Of a stretch of 64,000 nt of DNA, positions 1,006-63,495 are shown piece by piece. This stretch comes from Eledone cirrhosa (lineage: Eukaryota). Position 1 is the stretch's first letter, and every line of letters starts with the position of its first letter. The position numbers were made by a program, and so were the translations under genes. The notes under the pieces are model-generated. The model saw only the letters and a program-made list of their open reading frames with translations. It did not search any database and was not told the origin of the DNA. The DNA is taken from NCBI GenBank assembly GCA_964016885.1, contig OZ024759.1:34348001-34412000 (forward strand), in the 5' to 3' direction.

Positions 1006-3661
1006 CGAGAGACGGGGAGGGGGGTAAAGGCAGGTGGGTCTGATAAACATAAAGCTTATAATATGGAAAGCTTATAACATGTATTAGAACTAACCGGACG
1101 ACATTTTGTAACGCTTTGAGATAACAAATAAATAAGCGCTCTGCTTTTATATGCTATCAAATGTGGCAGTTAAAAAACTGCCATGTGTGTCTATTGGGCC
1201 CTGTGTAAAAATAAAGTGTTATATGGACGTTTAAGTTGACGTGAAAGAAATCGTACAAAGGGTTAGAGTAATTTTTAACATTAAGAGAAGCAAATATTCT
1301 AACCAGTTCACATTTGAAAATGTTTCGTTCCGATAGATTTCTATAAGATTTCTTCTATAAGATTTCTAAAAGAAAAATCGTGATAAATAGGGATATGTGT
1401 CATTGATTTATCAGATAATTCAGACTGAATACTCTGCGCATTCTTAATCTTTGACATTTCAAAGTAAGGACAAAGACGGTGAGTGGGGGTGTGAGGCAAA
1501 GGAAGGAAAAGGAAAGAAAACAAAACAAAATGAAAGAATATCGAAGAATATATTTAAAAAAAAACGCATTAAAATACTGAAGGAAATTAAGAAAGAAAGA
1601 AAGAATGTAGGAAAGAAAAGATCTAAAAATGGGGAAATGTGAGGAATAAAAGAAATGAGAAGAACGATAGAACAATGGCGAGAAAGAAACGACGAAAAAA
1701 TAAAAATAAAAAGGTTAGAATGAAGAAAACTAAATAAATTAAACATGGATAAAAACTAAAAAGTACTGAAGGAGAAACCGAAAGAAAAACAGGCAGACAG
1801 ATAGATAGATATATAGATATGTAGATACATATATACGTACATATTATACATACTTACATATGTACATACATATATACATACACATATACATACGTACATA
1901 CATATATACATACGTACATACATACGTACGTACATACATACATACATACATACATACATACATACATACATACATACATACATACATACATACATACATA
2001 CATACATACATACATACGTAGTTATGTATGTATGTATATAGGTAGATGGAGAGGTACATAGATAAATATGTAGACAGATAGGTAGCTAGATAGATAGACA
2101 TACAAACTGATAGATATACAGACAGGCTGATAGATAGAGAAATATATAACGAAATTGTATGAATACAAAATGTAAAAAAGAAGGAACACCGTCGCCATTT
2201 CTATCAGGAGTTGAGTGGAAATCTTTCTGAAATTTGAACATCAAATGGAAAATTTTTCTAAGGTTTAAAGACTTTCCCCAATATTCTTTCACCATTTTCT
2301 TTTTCTTATTACCATTTCTACGTTACCTTAATCATTATTATTAGTAGTAGTAGTAGGGGTAGTAGTATTAATTCAACCAATACTGCCACCTACTATAACT
2401 TTAGTTTTATATAATGTGCCCGTGAATCTCTCTCTGCGTGTGTGTGTGTGTGTATGTGTGTGTCTGTGTGTGTGTGTGTGTATGTGTGTGTTTGTCTGTG
2501 TCTGTGTGTGGCTCTGTGTGTTTGTGTGTGTGGGGGTTTTGCTGTGTGTGTATGTGTGTGTGTGTTTGTGTGTATGTGTTTTGCTGTGTGTGTGTGTATG
2601 TGTGTGTTTGTGTGTGTCTGTGTGTGGCTCTGTGTGTTTGTGTGTGTATGGGTTTTGCTGTGTGTGTATGTGTGTGTATGTGTGTGGCTGTGTGTGTATA
2701 TCTTTGTACTCTTGGAATTTGTTTTTTTAATGTGAACTAAGAATAATGAAATCGAAGAATTTCCCTTTAAGACAGCTTGCTACGTGACATGGAATTGTAC
2801 ACCGTCCAAAAAAGTAAAGAAACATTGAATAAAAAAAAACGCAAAAAAAAGAAGAAAAAAAATGAATTCGTTTGGGAAATGATTCGGTGTTGGTGATGGT
2901 GGAGGGGGGAGTACATGGCTTAGTAAGCAAACATAAGATTATAATATCAATAGTAGTAGTAGAAGTGGTGGTGGTGGTAGCAGTAGTAGTGGTGGTGGTG
3001 GTAGCAGTAGCAGTAGTAGTAGTAATGGTCGTGTGAGACGCTCTTGTGATTTCAAAGGTAAACACAAGAAACCTCTTTGATACATCAAAGAGGAAATTTC
3101 GAAGACCTAAACTTTTCGGCAATGGTATATAACATTAATGTTATTCTTGTTGATGTTGTTATAACTATTGCTGTTGCTGTTGTTGTTGCTGTTGCTGTTG
3201 GTAATGTTGTTGTTGTTGTTGTTAGTGGTGGTGGTCATACATTGGAACTGTCTTAACATAACCATATTCCATTGATTAACAATAAATAAATAAAATATTT
3301 ATATAACCCCACACATAATATATTTCATAGTTCTATCCATATAATGAAATATGTAAGCCAACATGGACATAAATTCAAACTATGCATTTCGTAAGTTATT
3401 CAAATACGATTATTCCCGTTTGATAACAATCCTCTTGAAGCCGACCTGACTTCTGTGAAGTAAATTTGTTTATTTTAAAGTACTTATACATCTCTATAGA
3501 TTCTACCATCATAATATTATTTAAGAACCTATGTTAGGGTATTGACTCAACGCCAGCGCGATAATGATTTCCGCTGTAGGCACAAGGTCAGACGCTATCG
3601 GAAAAGTCAGCAGCAAATTTCAATTCCTCCAAATTCTTAAGTATTTCCAAAATTGTTTGAA

Positions 3662-4082
3662 ACGTATAGTCAGTGTCTTTCATTAGAAATATAGTAGTGA
3701 AAGGGTTAAAGACATAGGCAGTGACTTTCATTAGAAATATAGTAATGAAAGCGTTAATGACATAGACAGTGTCTTTCATTAGAAATGTGGTAATGAAAGG
3801 GTTAATGACATAGACAGTGTCTTTCATTAGAAATATGGTAATGAAAGGGTTGAAGGCATAGGTAGTGTCTTTCGTTAGAAATATGGTAATGAAAGGGTTA
3901 AAGACATAGACAGTGTCTTTCATTAGAACTATGGTAATGAAAGGGTTAATGACAGAGACAATGTCTTTCATTAGATATATGGTAATGAAAGGGTTAAAGA
4001 CATAAGCAGTGTCTTTCATTAGAAATATAGTAATGAAAGGGTAAAATACATAGGCAGTGTCTTTCATTAGAAATATGGTAAC
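3662..4082. repeat. 48-bp minisatellite, ~9 copies
   Basis: Unit GTCTTTCATTAGAAATATGGTAATGAAAGGGTTAAAGACATAGACAGT. Confidence 0.92.
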
Positions 4083-4677
4083 AGAATTGATTCGTTTAAC
4101 GAAAAACAAGCCAGTAAATTTTCGACTAAGAAACATGTAGTATGTATGGTAAATATGATATTAAAATATATTCATATATTTTCGTTGGGGCTACATGTAT
4201 TTTCATTGAGGCTACATTTTAAAGGAGTATTTACAGTAGCTACTACATGTGTCTCCGTTGAAAGAAACCTCCATATATTCGATGAAAGAATTCAATATAT
4301 TCGAAATCACAATCACTAAATTAATGCTGCAAAGTGTTTCATTCTCAGATTATAGAGTTAGCAAAGATATCGATGTTAAACTTTAATTATATATTTATTT
4401 ACACCAGAATGCAACCAACACTGTCAATATAAATCCATCTTTAAAGATAGATTTATATGAACGACTTTGGTTTCTTTCTCTATTAAATAGTTATGCTCTG
4501 CTTCTTTCACTGTCTTCAACTGTGAGTATCTTCACCTTTCCCAGTACACCATGGATTAGGCATCAATTCCTGCTTACTGTCAACCGTAGGTACATATAGT
4601 GTTACATGCCTTATCAAACATAACAGTCGATTCCTTCACTATAATTACATATATAGGCGTCAGTCTACATGTTGAAA

Positions 4678-6368: not shown

Positions 6369-7297
6369 ACTAGGTAGGTAGATTGGTTAAATAAAAAATA
6401 TATACATTTTATATCTTTTAATAATTTTTCACGTCTTATTTTTTTTATTTTCCTTGTATCGTCTGCTTATTTACTTCTCACTTCTTTCGTCTCCTATTCA
6501 CTTTGGGAATCCATCACGTCTAACGTTTCTCGTCTCGTCTATAATTCTTACCATTCCATTTATTTCATCATATCTCATTCTGTCTCCTTCTCCATGGAAA
6601 ATCCCTGTTTTACTTTCCGTCTCATCCCATTGGTCCTTTATTTATCTATTCCCTTTTTCTTTCTCTTTTTCTCATCTGAAGATGTTGAATTGATAATGTT
6701 GTTACGGTGCCGGATTAAATGCATCAGTATTTTGTCCGGCTTTCTCTGCACTGAGTTGAAACCCAAATGAGGTCAACTTTGCTTGTTGTATTTTGAGGTC
6801 GATATATAAATTACCATTGAAGTACAGGCTATATAAAATACTACTGAAGTACATGATATAAGAAGTACCAGTCAAGTATCTTGTGTAAGCTCGTAGATTG
6901 TAGGAGTACAACTGGGACAGGGCATCTGTGGCATCTGTGGTTCTCTTGTTTTAATATTATTGTTATTTTTTTTATAACATTATTAAAATTTGTTTACATA
7001 CAAAACTCACTCACGAACACACACACTCACACACATACAGAGACACACACAAACGCAGACATACACACACACTATGTTTTCGTCCTGTACTGTCATGATG
7101 TTTTTTCTTGATGTAAACCCTTTGTGGTTAATAAAGAAACCAGAGCCTCAGACACCATGCTTTGCAACATAGAGTTTACATTCTGAGTTGAAATTCTGCC
7201 GAAGTTAACTTTGCCTTTCATCCTTACGGGGTCGATAAAATAAAGTACCAGTAATGTACTGTGTAATTGCTGGCCTTGTGCCTATATAAGAAACCAG

Positions 7298-10786: not shown

Positions 10787-11020
10787 ATAATAATAAATTT
10801 GAAGACTAAATTCCAAAGTGGGCTCGATAAGGATGAATTTGTATCAAATATATAAGAACCGTAGAGAAAATATTTATTAAAATAACAGATTAAAGTTTAA
10901 GCAAAGAATCGATGCTTTCACCCTTAACGGGATCTTCTGAAACTCCCGATAAGAAGATCCCGTTAAGGGTTAAAGCAGCATTTCTTTGCTTAAACTTTAA
11001 TCTGTTATTTTAATAAATAT
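10781..11020 (-). mobile_element. HHR-bearing element family C with inverted arm, in (TA)n
   Basis: Inverted arms ~10870-10938 / 10952-11020; tail AGTAATAATAATAAATTTGAAGACTAAA recurs at 19370-19510 and 47398-47465; partial copy 14965-15050. Confidence 0.75.
10894..10944 (-). ncRNA. Type I hammerhead-like motif, U4A core variant (family C)
   Basis: Minus strand AGTTT CAGAAGA TCCC-gttaa-GGGT GAAA GCA-tcgattctt-TGC TT AAACT. Confidence 0.65.
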
Positions 11021-11949: not shown

Positions 11950-12351
11950 AATATATATGTATATATATATATTTAAATATATATGTATATATATATATTT
12001 ATATATATATATATGTATATATATATATTTAAATATATATGTATATATATATATTTATATATATATATATATATTTTAATATATATGTATATATATATAT
12101 TTAAATATATATGTATATATATATATTTAAATATATATTTATATATATATAGGAACCTATTACCCACTCTATTACCCTAAGTATTGAGTACTTTGGTGAG
12201 TTATGGTCCACCTGGTTCCTTACCACATTTCCTTCGTTATATATATATATATATATTTATATGTATATATATATATATTTATATGTATATATATATATAT
12301 ATATATTTATATGTATATATATATATATATTTATATGTATATATATATATA

Positions 12352-12477: not shown

Positions 12478-12508
<31 letters not shown>

Positions 12509-12642
12509 ACGAAGGAAATGTGGTAAGGAACCAGGTGGACCATATATATATATATATCAATGATATTCTCACCTTCCAACAGAAATGGTCGCATTTTTTA
12601 AGGGTATGTCAATATTTATTTATAAAACTGCTCTATATTATA

Positions 12643-12703
12643 TTTTATCTGATGAAAGCACACCATAATTTAACTTGGTGTCCTTGAAATATGTATAATG
12701 AAA
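12643..12703 (+). ncRNA. Minimal type I hammerhead ribozyme (family E)
   Basis: TTTTAT CTGATGA AAG-c-ACACCA..TGGTGT-c-CTT GAAA TATGTATA ATGAAA; homologous to the arms at 28.3-28.6 kb. Confidence 0.78.
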
Positions 12704-12807
12704 TAAATATGGTTTTATAAATATAGTTTCCATTTGTTAATATATCGTATATATATATATTTATATATATAAGAATATCATTGATATATATATATATATC
12801 AATGATA

Positions 12808-12878
<71 letters not shown>

Positions 12879-12924
12879 ATGTTAACAATAGTAATAAATG
12901 GAAAATATCACTATATCATCATAT

Positions 12925-12985
12925 TTATTTTATTATATATATCTGAAGGATACTAAATTATAGTATGCTTTCATCAGATAAAATA
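12925..12985 (-). ncRNA. Degenerate family E hammerhead
   Basis: Minus strand TTTTAT CTGATGA AAGCATACT..AGTATCCTT followed by CAGAT instead of GAAAT. Confidence 0.5.
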
Positions 12986-13163
12986 CAATGTTTGATGTAT
13001 AAGATAGTGACATACACAAAATATACATATATATAAATATATATATTTATATATATATATATGGGGTGCGTATGTATGTAAAAGGTAAATCGAAATAAGA
13101 AAACAAACGAAACCGTACATGGAAGAAATATATTAGTTTGACGGTTGAAATAACAGGAAAAGA

Positions 13164-14197: not shown

Positions 14198-14330
14198 TAA
14201 TTGTTTCTACTTTAGGCACAAGGCCAGCAATTACCCAGTGCATTATTGGTACTTTATTTTATCGACTCCGTAAGGATGAAAGGCAAAGTCAACCTCGGCG
14301 GGATTTGAACTCAGATCGTAAAGGGACGAT
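14198..14330 (-). mobile_element. SINE family 1, 5'-truncated
   Basis: Reverse complement of the family consensus. Confidence 0.8.
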
Positions 14331-14413: not shown

Positions 14414-14463
14414 ATTAGTGTGGTATAGACAAGTACATATGTACTTGTCTATACCACACTAAT
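14414..14463. repeat. Perfect 50-bp palindrome immediately upstream of the family D HHR
   Basis: ATTAGTGTGGTATAGACAAGTACAT|ATGTACTTGTCTATACCACACTAAT. Confidence 0.9.
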
Positions 14464-14467
14464 TCAA

Positions 14468-14522
14468 ACTGCCTGAAGAGGTCACAGCCAAAGATGGCTG
14501 TCACTGAAATATATATAGCAGT
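14468..14522 (+). ncRNA. Minimal type I hammerhead ribozyme (family D)
   Basis: Stem I ACTGC/GCAGT; CTGAAGA 14473-14479; stem II ACAGCCA-aaga-TGGCTGT; GAAA 14506-14509; palindromic ATATATAT stem III; AUA triplet; AATAAA immediately downstream. Confidence 0.85.
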
Positions 14523-14589: not shown

Positions 14590-14790
14590 ATATAGATGAG
14601 ATTCTACAGGACTAGAACTGTTTCATTCATTAGAAATCATCAGGAATCGCAGGAGATTCCTGATGATTTCTAATGAATGAAACAGTTCTAGTCCTGTAGA
14701 ATCTCATCTATATTAAAACTGTTATACTCTGCTATGTATTGAGTAAGTACCTTACTTACTGTGGTTACCTCCGATTCAACCCGGAATAAC

Positions 14791-14791
<1 letters not shown>
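14590..14791 (+). mobile_element. HHR-bearing PLE pLTR/retrozyme-like element, family A (inverted arm + direct arm + tail) in (TA)n
   Basis: Inverted repeat ~14590-14648 / 14655-14713, then a unique tail ending CCGGAATAACG; (TA)n on both sides; near-identical copy at 62121-62324. Confidence 0.8.
14653..14705 (+). ncRNA. Type I hammerhead ribozyme (family A)
   Basis: Stem I GAGATTC/GAATCTC; core CTGATGA 14660-14666; stem II TTC-taat-GAA; GAAA 14679-14682; stem III ACAG/CTGT with loop TTCTAGTC; GUA cleavage triplet ending 14698; mirror copy on - strand ~14598-14648. Confidence 0.85.
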
Positions 14792-14907: not shown

Positions 14908-14960
<53 letters not shown>

Positions 14961-15102
14961 TATATAAATTCCTAGAGCAAATATTTATTGAAATAACAGA
15001 TTAAAGTTTAAGCAAAGAATCGCTGATTCCACCCTTAACGGGATCTTATCATAAAAAAGAACCCACAGTAGATATTTTTACGTTTTATGTTCTCCCTCTT
15101 AG

Positions 15103-19763: not shown

Positions 19764-19920
19764 CGAAGGAAAAGTACTCAATACTTAGGGTAGTAGAGTG
19801 GGTAATAGGAACGAGTGGGACCCCGACGGCTGAGCTCAAGCCGTTTCGACGGCTAATTCTGGACGGAATTAGCCGTCGAAACGGCTTGAGCTCAGCCGTC
19901 GGGGTCCTACTCGTTTCTAT
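19761..19920 (-). mobile_element. Family B element (internal deletion in tail)
   Basis: Palindromic head GACCCCGACGGCTGAGCTCAAGCCGTTTCGACGGCTAATT..; (TA)n flanks. Confidence 0.78.
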
Positions 19921-21875: not shown

Positions 21876-22211
21876 AATGATGTTGACTTGTTCTTCTTTT
21901 TGGTAAATATCATCTTGGTTAAGAGAGTGGGACTGGCTTTGTGCAGTGCCTTTGCTCACTATAAAAGCTTCACGGCACAGGCATTGCTTTATATCTGGAG
22001 ATCTCTCTGCACTTGTCGTCACATGCTACCATGGGCCCAGCACTATGTGTCAGTAATTGTCACAAATGTAGTGTTTGTACCAGAGTTTTCAAGTCGCTGG
22101 CTGGACTAAAAAGTCACACTCGTTCAGGCCATCAGTAGGGGTTCTCCTACATGGATAAAAAGTAGTGGCCGTACTCAAAAACGAGTTGGCAGCGACCATA
22201 TATATATATAC

Positions 22212-28173: not shown

Positions 28174-28604
28174 AAAGTTATATTTAAATTGTTGGGTTAC
28201 AACTAGTAAATATTTATAACTGATATAAAAGCACTCGACAAGTATTTGGAGTATATTTACGATATTAAATAAATGGAAACTATATTTATAAAACCATATC
28301 TATTTCATTATATATATTTCAGGGATATCATATTAACAATATGCTATGCCTTCCTCAGACAAAATACAATATAAACAGTTTTATAGATAAATAGATTTGA
28401 CATACCGTACAACATCGACTTGCCAATTCAACTTTTCAAATACAAGTCGATGTTGTACGGTATGTCAAATCTATTTATCTATAAAACTGTTTATATTGTA
28501 TTTTGTCTGAGGAAGGCATAGCATATTGTTAATATGATATCCCTGAAATATATATAATGAAATAGATATGGTTTTATAAATATAGTTTCCATTTATTTAA
28601 TATC

Positions 28605-28607
<3 letters not shown>
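28172..28607 (-). mobile_element. Family E HHR element with 165-bp inverted repeat, in (TA)n
   Basis: Arms 28258-28422 and 28443-28607 (reverse complements by eye), 20-nt spacer, unique tail 28172-28257, (TA)n on both sides. Confidence 0.82.
28501..28562 (+). ncRNA. Minimal type I hammerhead ribozyme (family E); mirror copy on - strand 28303-28364
   Basis: TTTTGT CTGAGGA AGG..CATATT-gtt-AATATG..CCT GAAA TATATATA ATGAAA. Confidence 0.8.
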
Positions 28608-30115: not shown

Positions 30116-30182
<67 letters not shown>

Positions 30183-30185
<3 letters not shown>

Positions 30186-30353
30186 CGAAGGAGTTGTGGT
30201 AAGGAACCAGGTGGACCATAACGCACCAGAGTACTCAATATTTAGGGTGCAGAGTGGGTAATAGAAGAAAGTGTGACCCCGACGGAAGAGCTCAAGCCGT
30301 TTCGACGGCTATTTCTGGACTTGAGTTCTGCCGTCGGGGTCATACTTTCTCCT
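30183..30353 (-). mobile_element. Family B element
   Basis: Same tail, partial inverted head, (TA)n flanks. Confidence 0.75.
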
Positions 30354-31532
30354 ATATATATATATATATTTCTCACTCTCTCACACGTGCTCTATCTCCC
30401 TGATTCTCCCTCTCTCGCCCTGACTCTGACTCTCACTCTTACTCTCTCTGTTTCTCACTCTCTCACATTATCTCTCTCTCTATCTCTCACTCATTCTCTC
30501 TCATCCTCCCTCTAACCCTCTCTTTGTTTTGCGTTTCCGTCTCTCACACTATATCTCTCTCTCTCTCTCTCTCTATCTATCTAGCTATCTATCTCTATCT
30601 CTATCTCTCTCTCTTTCTCTCTCTCACTCTACTAAAAAAGACACAATTCTGCCATATTTATAAGAACCTTGCCTCACTTAAGACAAGGTCATCAATTTGA
30701 AAGTCAGGTAAATCGACTCCTGCCTATTACTGGAGCTCTAGTTCATCAACCTTGCAATGACAAGAGAAAGGGCTTGAACTCAAATGGACGTAACTATATG
30801 ACGCAAAGCATATTAACTGATGTTCTAATGACACCTCCCTTGTAATAAGAAGGAGGAGGGGCAGGAGGAGGAGAAGGAGAAGAAGAAGGAGAAGAAGAAG
30901 AAGAAGAAGAAGAAGAAGAAGAAGGAGAAGGAGGAATATAAAATAAAGTTTGCGATATTTTTACAAATTGCCTGAAGAGAAACTAATTTTTTAAGACCTT
31001 AAATAGATGACGTTCTCTGTCTTTACGTACTGAACAAACCCAATATAATCTTGAAGCAATTTTCAATTCGATAAATTGATCACATGTCAATCGAAGCATA
31101 AGAACTTACACCACAGCATCAAAACGTCTTAACATCATCATCAGCATCATTATTATTATCAAAATTGTCATCATTACCATCGTTATCATTATCACCATAG
31201 TTGTCACCAACATCCTTATATATATATCATCATCGCCATCAGCATAAGCATCGCCGTCATCGAAATGTGCACCACCGCCATCCTCATAGCCATCATCACT
31301 ATCATTATCATCACCTTCCGTATCTTTTGTGTGTGTTGTTGTTGTTGTGTGTATAGTGTGAGAGTATCTACTCTTGTTTATTTTCCTTCAGTTTTGCTTT
31401 CTTTGATTTTCAGGTATGTACGTCCTTGCTTAGCAATGCTTATATAGCTCTCTCTCTCTCACTCTCTCTCTCACTCTCTCTCTCACTCTCTCTCTCTCAC
31501 TCTCTCTCTCACTCTCTCTCACACTCTCTCTC

Positions 31533-31690: not shown

Positions 31691-31891
31691 CGAGGGAAAA
31701 GTGGTAAGGAACCAGGTGGACCATAACGCACCAAAGTACTCAATACTTAGGGTAATAGAGTGGGTAATAGGCGTAAGTAAGACCCCGACGGCTGAGCTCA
31801 AGCCGTTTCGACGGCTAATTCTGTACTCAATTAGCCGTACAGAATTAGCCGTCGAAACGGCTTGAGCTCAGCCGTCGGGGTCTTACTTACT

Positions 31892-36568: not shown

Positions 36569-36654
36569 GTAGTGGTGGTGGTGGTGTAGATGTGTTAGAC
36601 TGGAAGCGGGTGTGGTAGGAGAAAGAAGAGGTGTAAGAAGAAAGGGAGACGACA

Positions 36655-38790
36655 GAAGCAGCAGCAGCATCAACGGCAGCAACAACAGCAGCACTGCCAC
36701 CAGCAGCAACATCAACTTGTTCTACCACAGTAACAGTAACAACCTCACCAGCAGCAACTGTCCGTGGTACAACAGCAGCAACAACAACAGCACTGCCACC
36801 AGCAGCAACACTCCAATAGCATGTTGTACTACAACAGCAACAGCAGCATCAATAACATCATCAGCAGGCTATAGTACTGCAAGAGGAGCCTCAACAGCAG
36901 CACCATCAGCAGGCTGTAGTACTACAAGAACACCATCAACAGCAGCACCATCAGCAGGCTATAGTACTGCAAGAGGAGCCTCAACAGCAGCACCATCAGC
37001 AGGCTATAGTACTGCAAGAGGAGCCTCAACAGCGGCACCATCAGCAGGCTGTAGTACTACAAGAGGAGCCCAGCAGCAGCACCATCAGCAGGCTATAGTA
37101 CTGCAAGAGAAGCCTCAACAGCAGCACCATCAGCAGGCTATAGTACTACAAGAACACCATCAACAGCAGCACCATCAGCAGGCTATAGTACTACAAGAAC
37201 ACCATCAACAGCAGCACCATCAGCAGGCTATAGTACTACAAGAACACCATCAACAGCAGCACTATCAGCAGGCTGTAGTACTACAAGAACACCATCAACA
37301 GCAGCACCATCAGCAGGCTATAGTACTACAAGAACACCATCAACAGCAGCACCATCAGCAGGCTGTAGTACTACAAGAACACCATCAACAGCAGCATCAT
37401 CAGCAGGCTGTAGTACTACAAGAACACCATCAACAGCAGCACCATCAGCAGGCTGTAGTACTACAAGAACACCATCAACAGCAGCACCAGCAGCAGTACG
37501 TACCATCAGCAGGCTATAGTAGTACAAGAACACTACCAGCACCAGTAGCAGCACTATCATCAACAGCAGCAGAAGATTGTAGTACTACAAGTGCAGCAGC
37601 AGCGCCACTATCAGCCGCAGCAGCAGTCTGTAGTACTACAGCACTATCAGCAGTACCAACAGTAGCATTAGTAGCAATAATAGATCAGCAGCAGCAGTCT
37701 GTAGTACTACAACACTGGCAGCAGCAGCAGTCTGTAGTACTATAACACTATCAGCAGCAGCAGTCTGTAGTACTACAACACTAGCAGCAGCAGCAGTCTG
37801 TAGTACTACAACACTATCAGCAGCAGCAGTCTGTAGTACTACAACACTAGCAGCAGTCTGTAGTACTACAACACTAGCAGCAGTCTGTAGTACTACAACA
37901 CTAGCAGCAGCAGCAGTCTGTAGTACTACAACCCTATCAGCAGCAGCAGCAGTCTGTAGTACTACAACACTAGCAGCAGCAGCAGTCTGTAGTACTACAA
38001 CACTAGCAGCAGCAGCAGTCTGTAGTACTACAACGCTATCAGCAGCAGCAGTCTGTAGTACTACAACACTAGCAGCAGTCTGTAGTACTACAACACTATC
38101 AGCAGCAGCAGTCTGTAGTACTACAACACTATCATCAGCAGCAGCAGTAGCTGTCTGTAATTCTACAGCATCAGCACTAACATCAGCAACATTAATAGCA
38201 ATAGCAGCACTATCAGCAGCAGCAGCACCATCATCACCACCAGTGGCACTATCAAGGAGCAGCACCTCAGCAGCACCATCGTCACCATCAGCAGCAGCAG
38301 CACCGTCATCACCGTCAGCAGTAGCAGCACCATCGTCACCACCAGTGGCACTATCAAGCAGCATCACTATCAGAAGCAGCAGCACCGTCATCACCATCAG
38401 CAGCAGCAGCACCGTCATCACCGTCAGCAGTAGCAGGCAGCACCACCAGCAGCACCAGTAGCACTATCAAGCAGCAGCACTATCAGCAACATCGGTAGCA
38501 CCGCCATCAGCAGCAGCTGCAGCACCACCAGCAACATAAGCAGTAGCAGGCAGCACCACCAGCACTATCAGTAGCACCATCAAGCAGCAGCACCACCATC
38601 ACCAACAGTAGCACCATCAAGCAGCAGCACCACAGCACCCTCAGTAGCACATCAAGCAGCAGCACCACCATCACCAACAGTAGCACTATCAAGCAGCAGC
38701 ACCACCAGCACCATCAGTAGCACCATCACCATCAGTAGCACCATCAAGCAGCAGCACCACCATCACCATCAGTAGCACCATCAAGCAGCA
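36655..38790. repeat. CAG-derived composite minisatellite (45-bp units, then ~27-36-bp units, then CAG/CAC-rich)
   Basis: Unit CACCATCAGCAGGCTRTAGTACTACAAGAACACCATCAACAGCAG then CAGCAGTCTGTAGTACTACAACACTA(T). Confidence 0.9.
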
Positions 38791-47743: not shown

Positions 47744-48026
47744 AATGAAAATAGAGAAATTAATGTGAGCAAGAAGCCAATATATATATATATATATATA
47801 ATATATATATATATACATATACACATGCATACATATACACACATATGCATTTACATATATATACATACATATATATATATATACATACACATACATATAT
47901 GTACATATATATGTATATATATATACCTATACACACATATATACCCATATATGCACACAAACACACATATATACATATATAGTGACGAAACATAAGTCAA
48001 TTGCATGAACTCATTATCCTTTATTT

Positions 48027-48082
48027 ACTGCTATATATATTTCGATGGTAGCCATTGAATGGCTATGACCTCATCAGGCAGT
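48027..48082 (-). ncRNA. Minimal type I hammerhead ribozyme (family D)
   Basis: Minus strand ACTGC CTGATGA GGTCATAGCCATTCAATGGCTACCATC GAAA TATATATA GCAGT then AAATAAA; same stem I as 14468 copy, different but still paired stem II. Confidence 0.85.
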
Positions 48083-48684
48083 TAGTCAGTTCCTAGATAT
48101 GCCAGCTCTGTGCTTATGGTGTTGATGGTATCAGAGCCTTGGGACATACAGAGCCTATACACATATATATATACATATATATATGTGTGTGTGAATGAAA
48201 TACATGTAATAGTTGTCCATTGAAATCCTCTCTCTTCATCTTCATCTTTATATCTGGTTTTTATTTTGATATCTTGGACACTGAAAAGTAAACCTTACCA
48301 GCTCCCTAACAACTTCCGAACAGCTCCCTACATACCCAGCCATCCACCTGTCTAGACGTCCAGCCACTGAAAATATCTAGGGGTAACTCTGGAACGCCAT
48401 TTACCCAAATTTACAAACACCCAATCTCTCCATCATCATCATCACTGCAATACTTCATAAACCATCTCAAGCCCTCCATCGTCATTATCACTAAAGGTGG
48501 GTAAAAACCCCCTTTTGACTCGATGAGCATGGGATTTGCACCTACAAAGTTCCCCTCTGAGGTACAAGTCCATGGAAGGTTGGTTGTGGAAGACCAGCTG
48601 TCACCCATGTATACCAACCTCCCGTCCACACACCACCGTTGAGGTCCAAGGGAAAGACAAAGGCACTAGTGACATGACAACGTA

Positions 48685-50101: not shown

Positions 50102-50150
<49 letters not shown>

Positions 50151-50152
<2 letters not shown>

Positions 50153-50264
50153 ACAAAGGAATTGTGGTAAGGAACTAGATGGACCATAACGCACCAGAGT
50201 ACTCAATACTTAGGGTAGTAGAGTGGGAAACGGCTTGAGCTCTGCCGTCGGGGGCATACTTTTT

Positions 50265-50270
<6 letters not shown>
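50151..50270 (-). mobile_element. Family B element, truncated
   Basis: Tail plus inverted GAAACGGCTTGAGCTCTGCCGTCGGGG; further fragments at 12150-12239 (+), 12507-12543 (-), 16285-16360, 56962-56998 (-). Confidence 0.72.
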
Positions 50271-56869: not shown

Positions 56870-57030
56870 CTAGTGATTTCGAAGCACATCCTCTTGAGCA
56901 TAGAGTGCTCAACCGGCACACCGCCTATGGATGCATCCAAGCAACCTTACTACAAATATATATAACAAAGAAAGTGTGGTAAGAAACCAGGTGGACCATA
57001 TATATATATATATAAATATATATATATATA

Positions 57031-60659: not shown

Positions 60660-60836
60660 TACGAGGGTTGCCTGAAAAGTTGAGAAGTCCATGACCTGAT
60701 TATGAAGGAGTGATGCTAAAGCTGTGAAATCTTGGATGCACTAATTTCAACTCTTCTATGTTAAGAAATAAACCTCATTTGGTCATTCCATGAGAGTATC
60801 TTGGTCAAATTATGCTCTTTTCAGCTGACACTTGTA
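60660..60836. mobile_element. Mariner-type MITE, TA flanked
   Basis: TA-CGAGGGTTGCCTGAAAAG ... CTTTTCAGCTGACACTTG-TA imperfect TIRs. Confidence 0.55.
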
Positions 60837-61221
60837 TATACAGAGTCCGTCGAAAAGATGTATGTACTTTTCAGCGGACACTTGTATATACAGAGTCCGT
60901 CGAAAAGATGTATGTACTTTTCAGCGGACACTTGTATATACAGAGTCCGTCGAAAAGATGTATGTACTTTTCAGCTGATACTTGTATATACAGAGTCCGT
61001 CGAAAAGATGTATGTACTTTTCAGCCGACACTTGTATATACAGTGTCCGTCGAAAAGATGTATGTACTTTTCAGCCGACACTTGTATATACAGTGTCCGT
61101 CGAAAAGATGTATGTACTTTTCAGCCGACACTTGTATATACAGAGTCCGTCGAAAAGATATATGTACTTTTCAGCTGATACTTGTATATACAGAGTCCGT
61201 CGAAAAGATATATACACACTT
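60817..61221. repeat. 50-bp minisatellite (~8 copies) built from transposon-like termini
   Basis: Unit CTTGTATATACAGAGTCCGTCGAAAAGATGTATGTACTTTTCAGCGGACA. Confidence 0.92.
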
Positions 61222-61321
61222 CAGGAACAGAAAATAAGACTTGTATAACTATTTAACTTGTTCATATATCTTTCTTCTCACACACACATACACACACATA
61301 CACACACACACATACACACAC

Positions 61322-61881: not shown

Positions 61882-61886
<5 letters not shown>

Positions 61887-62062
61887 AACAAGTAAGACCC
61901 CGACGGCTGAGCTCAAGCCGTTTCGACGGCTAATTCTGGACTCGAAACGGCTTGAGCTCAGCCGTCGGGGTCTTACTTGTTCCTATTACCCACTCTACTA
62001 CCCTAAGTATTGAGTACTTTGGTGCGTTATGGTCCACCTGGTTCCTTACCACATTTCCTTCG

Positions 62063-62065
<3 letters not shown>
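61882..62065 (+). mobile_element. Family B element: fold-back head with 3' half of a hammerhead + ~85-bp tail, in (TA)n
   Basis: GAAAC GGC-ttgagctca-GCC GTC GGGGTC; tail ending CCACATTTCCTTCGTTA; inverted head; (TA)n flanks. Confidence 0.78.
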
Positions 62066-62120
<55 letters not shown>

Positions 62121-62123
<3 letters not shown>

Positions 62124-62324
62124 TTTTAATATAGATGAGATTCTACAGGACTAGAACTGTTTCATTCATTAGAAATCATCAGGAATCATGAGATTCCTGA
62201 TGATTTCTAATGAATGAAACAGTTCTAGTCCTGTAGAATCTCATCTATATTAAAACTTTTATACTCTGCTATGTATTGAGTACCTTACTTACTGTGGTTA
62301 CCTCCGATTCAACCCGGAATAACG
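62121..62324 (+). mobile_element. Family A HHR element, second copy
   Basis: Same sequence as 14590-14791 with a different fold-back junction; (TA)n flanks. Confidence 0.8.
62188..62244 (+). ncRNA. Type I hammerhead ribozyme (family A)
   Basis: 9-bp stem I ATGAGATTC/GAATCTCAT; CTGATGA 62197-62203; GAAA 62216-62219; stem III ACAG/CTGT; GUA at 62233-62235; mirror copy on - strand. Confidence 0.87.
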
Positions 62325-62361
<37 letters not shown>

Positions 62362-62740: not shown

Positions 62741-63495
62741 ATATTTCTTTATTAGCCACAGGGGCACAAAAGAAGGGGACAAATACAAAGGGGGAAGTTT
62801 ACATACAATAAAAACGTGTAAAATGTTATCACAGATGGAATTTAAAAGTTAGTCGATTTTCCCCAATAGAGGGAGACAGTTTATATGGGTAACACAGACC
62901 CCCGAAAAAAATGTGCAACCCTCATCTCCAGGAGTACGAAGAGCTTGTACTCCTTTCCTCTCCTCCTCCTTTTCCTCAACCTACAGGCTGATATAGAGAG
63001 AAGGCCCATTCACTCGGGCCATTCTCGCCACTTTCACCCACCTTTCATAAAACTTGCTGGGGTACAGCACCTCTCTCTCCATCCTGATTCTTCTTCCAAA
63101 GTGGTATTTGAAAAAAAGAATCAGTTGTTGGCCGGAGAGAAAGGTGTCTGACCTCAGCCCTTTCAACCTTGTCCACCATACAACCTCTTTCGCCATAGCT
63201 ATCACACAAAGGAAAACCGCCTCTCCTTCGTTTTTGAAGGAGGGTGGCGGTTTGATCATGACAATGGACTCGGTGGTCAACTGGATTGGTCCCACCCGCG
63301 ACAATAGTCGTTCCACATAGCCCCACAGGTCAGTGACGCCCGGGCAGTGTATGAATGCGTGCGCGACGGTTTCTTCGTCTCGCACGCACCTCGGACAGAT
63401 CTTTTTTGCAGGGTCCCTTCCCGGGCGCCCATGTCTGTAGAGCTTGTCTCGAACTGGTAGAGCTCCTCGGTAGCACTGCCAGGCCAGGGACTTTT
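62741..63495 (-). mobile_element. 5'-truncated L1/Tx1-clade LINE (ORF2 C-terminus + 3'UTR) inserted in (GATA)n
   Basis: Zinc-finger-bearing ORF end, 3'UTR ending GTGGCTAATAAAGAAAT, (GATA)n on both sides. Confidence 0.85.
62981..63493 (-). pseudogene. Tx1/L1 ORF2 C-terminal fragment (zf-RVT-like CCHC region), open frame of 170 aa
   Basis: KSLAWQCYRGALPVRDKLYRHG..ICPRCVRDEETVAHAFIHCPGVTDLW..; CxxC..ET..H...C motif typical of L1/Tx1 ORF2. Confidence 0.85.

What the first reader, a model, noticed from the sequence alone, without database searches (positions are those of the whole stretch)
62121..62324. Family A: intact canonical hammerheads on both strands of a fold-back element
Seen: all core nucleotides are present (CUGAUGA, GAAA, GUA), with a 9-bp stem I and a 4-bp stem III whose loop contains the palindrome CTAG. 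The inverted arm puts a second HHR on the opposite strand. The two copies 47 kb apart are nearly identical but have different junctions. Inference: a young family and the best candidate for an active ribozyme; intronic transcription in either direction would include an HHR, although the long hairpin would compete with its folding.
Basis: partly seen in the sequence, partly recalled or inferred. Interest (0 to 1): 0.8.

Follow-up and report, generated by a model that had tools for sequence, protein, structure and literature searches.

The report
Folded-back Penelope retrotransposon end with hammerheads
This mirror-image DNA in a TA repeat does carry a complete self-cutting-RNA (hammerhead) motif on each strand, but it is most likely the ordinary leftover end of a Penelope-type jumping gene, and RNA read through it either way is predicted to zip into a long hairpin that would block the cutting.

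Summary
Both copies (62.1 kb, 14.6 kb) have a full type I hammerhead core on each strand, far above chance. Corrections: stem II is weak (U10.1·U11.1 plus 3 bp). The family's own stem I is 6 bp; three of the '9 bp' are junction letters, and the minus-strand copy has 5 bp. The element is (TA)n–inverted arm–arm–one-sided 68-nt tail–(TA)n. It belongs to an abundant, diverse family (about 1 read in 1,800) with two preferred ends, each abutting (TA)n. That is the published insertion unit of endonuclease-bearing Penelope-like elements (PLEs). Ribozyme layout, (TA)n target and end distances fit the Hydra clade, where Penelope-13_HM already shows hammerheads on both strands. No RT/endonuclease ORF was linked, so membership is unproven. 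In either direction the antisense arm is transcribed first, and the hammerhead helices have predicted probability of about 0. So the family ribozyme is likely functional, but these copies are poor candidates in situ. No RNA run was available. This scan noted the same architecture before, in this and other genomes. New member of a known kind.

The parts
62064..62121 (.). Left (TA)n target run (shared with the neighbouring family-B element)
   Evidence: sequence; arm starts 2 nt from the run
62123..62187 (-). Inverted, 5'-truncated arm ending at the family's short terminus; type I hammerhead on - strand (CUGA 62182, N17 62144, stem I 5 bp)
   Evidence: short terminus 62257 followed by (AT)n in 410/529/570 reads
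62188..62190 (+). Junction letters ATG, not from the parent (parent upstream is GATACCC); they add 3 pairs to stem I
   Evidence: loose ends before 62191/14654
62191..62241 (+). Type I hammerhead: native stem I AGAUUC/GAAUCU, core CUGAUGA 62197-62203, U10.1·U11.1, stem II UUC/GAA with variable loop 62208-62211, GAAA, stem III ACAG/CUGU with near-palindromic loop, cut predicted after A62235
62192..62256 (+). Forward arm of the 65-bp perfect palindrome
62257..62324 (+). One-sided 68-nt tail ending at the long terminus; holds an ACTC..TATTGAGTAC motif also seen in family B and resembling Hydra-clade tails
   Evidence: (about 460 reads per run end at 62322 then (TA)n), 31, 52, 54, 55
62325..62360 (.). 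Right (TA)n target run
   Evidence: sequence
14590..14648 (-). Second copy: inverted arm with - strand hammerhead (CUGA 14643, N17 14605)
14649..14654 (+). Second copy: junction loop GCAGGA (last A is the parent's)
14655..14791 (+). Second copy: forward arm with hammerhead (CUGA 14660, N17 14698) and tail, then (TA)n

Best explanation
The element is a perfect 65-bp palindrome with a one-sided tail between two TA runs, carrying a full hammerhead core on each strand, and is likely the 5'-truncated, head-to-head insertion stump of an endonuclease-bearing Penelope-like retrotransposon, probably of the Hydra clade. Shown: the anatomy; an abundant family that continues upstream into a longer element; two preferred ends about 22 and 87-89 nt past the cut site, each joined to (TA)n; loop II variation and a stem I compensatory change. 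Inferred: the element's endonuclease nicks (TA)n and its RT copies the hammerhead-bearing end of the RNA. It stops at the 5' edge of stem I, and either the cDNA folds back and primes on itself or two cDNAs primed on opposite strands are joined, leaving one arm with the tail and one without. The hammerhead likely works in the parent RNA (processing tandem precursors, as monomer or as a dimer via the palindromic stem III). In the stump it is a passenger: a transcript in either direction makes the antisense arm first and is predicted to form a 65-bp dsRNA rather than cleave.
For: Anatomy. 6 of 8 non-microsatellite fold-backs in the window have one arm within 11 nt of (TA)n and a 57-87 nt tail on the other side. 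Family reads: 6,712-7,268 of about 12.5 million per RAD run; loose ends give a longer upstream parent and two (TA)n-joined ends. About 80% of reads differ at 62211 in loop II; 29-35% carry T62239G, matched by an upstream ...GCAGC|TTC end that restores the pair as C-G. Published PLE layout: inverted 5'-truncated copy, tail on one end, (TA)n bias (PMC8557442 passages; PMC3846280 passages); opposite-strand HHR pairs in S. mansoni (PMC4209133); both-strand nicking and internal RT starts 111-118 nt into the ORF, i.e. about 85-92 nt past the HHR cut (PMC11167929). Hydra-clade table: by my count 14 of 25 elements have the same CUGANGAU...UGAA (U·U) core, 11 of 25 cut after A, 4 of 25 have stem III ACAG/CUGU. 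26 of 27 Hydra families are listed with a (TA)n target. Penelope-13_HM has an inverted 5' copy with the HHR on the other strand. Motif-to-end distances of 86 and 153 nt here sit at the lower edge of and within the published 87-425 nt range (n = 24). Folding.
Against: No PLE ORF in the window: of 100 segments scanned (100 of 164 candidates), only a LINE zf-RVT passed its cut-off. No whole genome was held, so the parent RT-endonuclease was never linked. No identical sequence in the Craig supplement (0 hits for CTGATGATTTC, TATTGAGTA, GATTCAACCC). The 68-nt tail is longer than the published 30-40 bp, and loop III (8 nt) is longer than in Hydra rows (1-3 nt). No target-site duplication can be read in (TA)n. 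The linkage of the two stem I changes within one molecule is inferred from counts, not shown.
Confidence: 0.85

Rival explanations
1. A non-autonomous retrozyme-like element derived from a PLE end. Short head-to-tail hammerhead repeats (77-78 nt unit) are the active form and make small circular RNAs; the fold-backs are by-products of its insertion.
For: Joints 62260->62191 with GATACCC between (79/25/45 reads, 17/8/12 starts, side 65) and 14716->14654 with CATTTGTTGATACCC and variants in several contigs. Animal retrozymes are proposed PLE derivatives (bioRxiv 10.64898/2026.07.22.740005, abstract and introduction).
Against: Such joints are a small minority against 731-832 reads per run with a loose end before 62191. 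One contig of organism B runs 144 letters upstream without returning to the hammerhead. A partial tandem with a very short second copy is standard for PLEs. Only dimers can be seen in 150-nt reads. Published retrozyme units are about 200-400 nt (PMC7229834 passages).
Confidence: 0.07
2. One reading: the fold-back is itself an active two-way ribozyme cassette that cuts host transcripts from either strand.
For: Intact cores on both strands in both copies; the isolated 57-nt + motif folds into the hammerhead shape at -11.2 kcal/mol; U·U-started stem II is known in natural hammerheads (PMC3088659; axolotl HHR_Amex2, PMC7229834).
Against: The antisense arm always precedes the ribozyme. The hairpin is already about -47 kcal/mol by 62220, before stem III is made, and helix probabilities are 0.000 in read-through RNA. 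Even the isolated native motif plus tail has stem I probability about 0.016. The PAc hammerhead needed protein, and its cut ends were not seen in RNA-seq (PMC11167929).
Confidence: 0.04
3. A MITE or fold-back DNA transposon that captured a hammerhead, or a hairpin made by an assembly or chimeric-read artefact.
For: Perfect arms and a (TA)n target resemble Tc1/mariner-type MITEs (general knowledge). Long-read hairpin chimeras exist.
Against: The tail is one-sided and most family members are not fold-backs but continue upstream. A related fold-back junction is seen in raw Illumina reads of three runs of another study (35-36 reads with single-base gaps at 62188 and 62191) and in an X1 contig. The two window copies have different loops. 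The exact 62.1-kb junction was not separately confirmed in reads.
Confidence: 0.04

Closest known systems
Hydra-clade C-terminal EN+ Penelope-like elements (Craig et al. 2021, PMC8557442; e.g. Penelope-13_HM, Penelope-9_HM, Hydra-2_Amil, Hydra-2_Ajap, Hydra-1_Obim)
   Same: Type I HHR near the 3' end, often CUGANGAU...UGAA with U·U and a 4-nt loop II; stem III ACAG/CUGU and cut after A in several; (TA)n target; similar HHR-to-end distances; GCTC..GAGCAC tail motif resembling ACTC..GAGTAC here; Penelope-13_HM has an inverted copy with HHRs on both strands.
   Different: No ORF linked here; sequence not in their supplement; loop III 8 nt rather than 1-3; HHR unlike that of Hydra-1_Obim.
Inverted-pLTR insertion units of EN+ PLEs (Adineta vaga Penelope, PMC3846280; Poseidon_Ac, PMC11167929; D. 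virilis Penelope, PMC2377424)
   Same: Head-to-head inverted 5'-truncated copy, palindromic junction, tail on one end; long terminus about 87-89 nt past the HHR cut, like the PAc RT start sites.
   Different: Tail 68 nt versus 30-40 bp; no ATG-initiated ORF starts inside the hammerhead here.
PLE hammerheads (Cervera and de la Pena 2014, PMC4209133; Lunse et al., PMC5785218, seen only as a reference)
   Same: Type I fold with palindromic stem III/loop III able to pair between two molecules (self-duplex -12.8 vs monomer hairpin -1.4 kcal/mol).
   Different: Lacks the G10.1-C11.1 pair and the long helix II of metazoan min-HHRs; stem III is longer (4 bp).
Animal non-LTR retrozymes (PMC7229834; bioRxiv 10.64898/2026.07.22.740005)
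   Same: ORF-less, type I HHR; axolotl HHR_Amex2 also has U·U at the base of helix II.
   Different: Defined by head-to-tail arrays of about 200-400 nt; the window copies are single head-to-head pairs.

Membership tests
Type I hammerhead ribozyme | Core C3 U4 G5 A6 N7 G8 A9 / G12 A13 A14 A15.1 / U16.1 H17 | tested here: met
   all four motifs
Type I hammerhead ribozyme | Three helices around the core, stem I open | tested here: met
   stem I 5-9 bp, stem II 3 bp, stem III 4 bp; covariation
Type I hammerhead ribozyme (canonical) | Paired 10.1-11.1 (usually G-C) | tested here: not met
   U·U here; a known natural variant (PMC3088659; 14 of 25 Hydra-clade elements)
Type I hammerhead ribozyme | Match to an Rfam hammerhead model | tested here: not met
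Type I hammerhead ribozyme | Site-specific self-cleavage | not testable with these tools
   no RNA run listed; folding only
EN+ Penelope-like element | ORF with PLE RT and GIY-YIG endonuclease in full-length copies | tested here: inconclusive
   none in window (100 of 164 segments); no genome held; loose ends show only 30 letters
EN+ Penelope-like element | HHR in the terminal (pLTR) region | tested here: met
   cut site 22 and 87-89 nt from the two ends
EN+ Penelope-like element | Inverted 5'-truncated copy and one-sided tail | tested here: met
EN+ Penelope-like element | Partial tandems (direct pLTRs) | tested here: met
   head-to-tail joints (not in the window copies)
Hydra clade PLE | RT/EN phylogeny, EN without CCHH | not testable with these tools
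   no ORF in hand
Hydra clade PLE | (TA)n insertion preference | tested here: met
   shared with Neptune and Naiad, so not diagnostic
Non-LTR retrozyme | Head-to-tail array of HHR units | tested here: not met
   window copies are head-to-head; dimers elsewhere in the family
Non-LTR retrozyme | Expressed circular RNA | not testable with these tools
   no RNA run
MITE / fold-back DNA transposon | Terminal inverted repeats at both ends of all copies | tested here: not met
   one-sided tail; most copies continue upstream

The most novel reading that the evidence does not exclude
The ribozyme fold itself sets where this retroelement's insertions are truncated. In four fold-back junctions (both window copies, one X1 contig, one read cluster of a different subfamily) both arms end within about 2 nt of the 5' edge of stem I. 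There the nascent cDNA end becomes complementary to its own earlier part and could snap back and self-prime. The same family also makes 77-78-nt head-to-tail hammerhead repeats, which would be a retrozyme unit well below the sizes read in print. The two read-derived junctions are biased toward looking like the reference, and I did not search the literature for this specific idea.
Probability: 0.2. Interest if true: 0.5.

Novelty: new member of a known kind. Interest (0 to 1): 0.15.

Why it matters
As it stands it is one more family of hammerhead-bearing PLE ends. Its use is practical: an abundant family with a young subfamily, a dimer-capable stem III and two sharp termini is a good substrate for the open questions of what PLE hammerheads do and how head-to-head insertions arise. 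It is also a caution: a hammerhead on each strand of a palindrome is predicted to be silenced, not doubled, and such stumps are more likely sources of dsRNA for editing or silencing (inference, untested).

Tried and rejected
Whole genome: none held. The repeat finder was swamped by microsatellites. Rfam: no hammerhead at gathering score in the window or in 5 loci; the 64 E-value matches were mostly miRNA-type hairpin or low-complexity families, with no hammerhead family among them. No RNA holder listed, so expression, editing and cut ends are open. Exact 24-nt core pattern in metagenomes: 0 hits. With loop II as N: 4 metagenome and 4 viral loci. None matches family A beyond 26-28 nt, so they are not relatives, though several look like type III hammerheads. 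Pfam on 100 of 164 low-repeat segments found no PLE domain. Sequence look-up in earlier findings and near-place look-up: nothing. Lunse et al. not held. Paper search 'hammerhead ribozyme'+'octopus' listed 4 papers, none on this family by title or abstract. The O. vulgaris repeat paper has 0 occurrences of ribozyme, hammerhead or palindrom in its main text. A five-term U-U search gave 0. Considered: the parent's T-rich...CAG|ATTC is a 3' splice site, as in D. virilis Penelope where the intron ends at helix I, so junctions would come from spliced RNA. Given low weight: Hydra rows have T-rich upstream sequence without a conserved AG and no 5' splice site was in reach. Tail hairpins are not significant on their own (z -0.6 to -1.5). 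Seven of the 15 inverted repeats were simple-repeat arms and were left out of the count. Repbase/Dfam entries and unseen supplements may already hold this family.

Full report
Setting. The window is AT-rich and dense in microsatellites, with no long non-repetitive ORF except a LINE zf-RVT fragment at 62984-63484 (100 of 164 candidate segments scanned). It reads as animal genomic DNA. Earlier scan notes on the same genome call it octopus; that matches my recall of the SINE-like sequence near 14240-14330 but was not tested here. No whole genome is held.

Observation. A pattern scan finds type I hammerhead cores at 62197 (+, N17 62235), 62182 (-, N17 62144), 14660 (+, N17 14698) and 14643 (-, N17 14605), each with a 4-bp stem III. 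These 4 strict hits compare with a mean of 0.01 in 100 local dinucleotide shuffles. The arms are perfect, 65 bp with a 4-nt loop and 59 bp with a 6-nt loop, and identical between the copies over the shared arm. Stem II begins with U·U and has 3 pairs, and Rfam does not score the motif. U10.1·U11.1 is a known natural variant (PMC3088659 passage; axolotl HHR_Amex2 with 22% cleavage in one hour as monomer, PMC7229834 passage).

The family. Three RAD-seq runs of the same species label give 6,712-7,268 reads of about 12.5 million each at >=85% likeness; only 5-9% are >=99% alike. RAD sampling is uneven, so this shows abundance, not a copy number. The family is large and diverse, and the two window copies are a young subset. 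About 80% of reads differ at 62211 in loop II. T62239G (29-35%) is matched by an upstream end ...GCAGC before 62194, turning an A-U pair of stem I into C-G; the linkage is inferred from counts. Only 40 of 132 variant rows were shown, so core invariance was not measured; a few reads on the mirrored arm carry core changes (62179, 62180). In 731-832 reads per run the sequence upstream of A62191 is ...TTTTTTGATACCC, also at 97% likeness (277 and 448 reads). The native stem I is therefore 6 bp, and the ATG that makes it 9 bp is junction sequence. Reads end at two places, 62257 (410/529/570) and 62322 (464/463/460), each followed by (TA)n. The inverted arm uses the short end and the forward arm the long one. 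Three contigs of a second organism were laid at 97%. No RNA holder was listed.

Architecture. (TA)n, inverted arm, short loop, arm, one-sided tail, (TA)n recurs in 6 of 8 non-microsatellite fold-backs of the window, from three sequence families. PMC8557442 (passages) describes exactly this for PLEs: an inverted 5'-truncated copy, a tail at one end and microsatellite bias. PMC3846280 (passages) reads the palindromic junctions as self-priming. PMC4209133 (parts 1-2 of 4) places hammerheads in PLE terminal repeats, notes opposite-strand pairs, and finds low activity that needs dimers. PMC11167929 (parts 1-2 of 4) shows a PLE protein nicking and extending both strands at AT-rich DNA and starting RT about 85-92 nt past the hammerhead cut, close to the 87-89 nt here. 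That hammerhead needed protein, and no cut ends were seen in RNA-seq. The supplement of PMC8557442 (part 2 of 59 and search hits) points to the Hydra clade. By my count 14 of 25 tabulated elements have the U·U core, 11 cut after A and 4 have the ACAG/CUGU stem III. Penelope-13_HM is listed with an inverted 5' copy and a hammerhead on both strands. Two Hydra tails carry GCTC..GAGCAC where family A has ACTC..GAGTAC. Family A itself was not found in that file, and no ORF links it to the clade.

Is it active here? The isolated 57-nt + motif folds in hammerhead shape (-11.2 kcal/mol, z -1.4), with stem III only about 30% formed. Stem III can pair between two molecules (-12.8 versus -1.4 kcal/mol), which suggests dimer action. 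In either direction a read-through transcript makes the antisense arm first. It folds at -125 to -127 kcal/mol with stem I and III probabilities of 0.000, and the hairpin reaches -47 kcal/mol before stem III is made. The genomic copies are thus predicted dsRNA, not active ribozymes. These are equilibrium predictions; a promoter inside the loop or a helicase could change them.

Mechanism, committed. Shown: anatomy, family ends, target, covariation. Inferred: endonuclease nick in (TA)n, RT start at one of two sites, stop at the 5' edge of stem I, self-priming or joining of two cDNAs, and hammerhead function in the parent RNA only. Confidence 0.85 for a PLE stump and about 0.6 for the Hydra clade. 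Both window junctions, one X1 contig and a 35-36-read cluster of the other subfamily end within about 2 nt of stem I, although most copies run further upstream. That hints at a structure-set stop, but two of the four are ascertained by likeness. Head-to-tail 77-78-nt dimers also occur and are most simply short partial tandems; part 1 of 5 of bioRxiv 10.64898/2026.07.22.740005 links such repeats to PLEs.

Verdict. A real feature and a new member of a known kind. The same architecture was noted earlier by this scan in this and other genomes (unchecked AI notes, one of which led me to the Hydra table that I then read). Interest 0.15.

Noticed in passing
window 19818-19907, 30182-30355, 31773-31890, 50150-50269, 61882-62063; tail-only pieces 12156-12240, 12506-12544, 56962-57000: Family B fold-backs (stem III-like GGCTTGAGCTCAGCC, GUC site) with one-sided tails; junctions fall in or just after a long stem II hairpin and the CUGANGA half is lost. 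The 61882 copy shares a (TA)n run with family A.
   Followed up: partly
window 28258-28607; related 12603-12760 and 12861-12989: Family C: perfect 165-bp arms with a hammerhead on each strand (CUGAGGA 28507 +, 28358 -); a GTATGT splice-donor-like motif lies about 17 nt from the junction.
   Followed up: partly
window 14414-14517 and 48017-48083: Family D minimal type I hammerheads (long stem II, 2-bp palindromic stem III); the 14.4-kb copy starts with a 50-bp palindrome.
   Followed up: no
L001:5996-6056 (-), L002:176-240, L003, L005-L008 (L008:3155-3215): Metagenome and viral contigs carry the same CUGAUGAUUUC-N4-GAAUGAAAC core flanked by stems I and III that were not in the search pattern, i.e. 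apparent type III hammerheads with a U·U stem II that Rfam misses at gathering score. L004 does not fold so.
   Followed up: partly
reads on window 62191-62260 and 14654-14718: Head-to-tail 77-78-nt hammerhead dimers in other genomic copies, with several junction variants.
   Followed up: partly
window 62984-63484 (-): 3' fragment of a LINE ORF with zf-RVT (E 2.3e-06).
   Followed up: no
window 21965-22135 (+): Single weak C2H2 zinc-finger match (E 6.3e-05, below cut-off); possible exon or remnant.
   Followed up: no
window 10880-11020 and about 14960-15050: Another fold-back (19-bp perfect core, longer imperfect arms) with a related copy just right of the 14.6-kb element; no hammerhead core found by the scan.
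   Followed up: no
window 36573-38463, 60765-61245, 3588-4160: Minisatellite arrays giving long open frames with repeated peptides.
   Followed up: no
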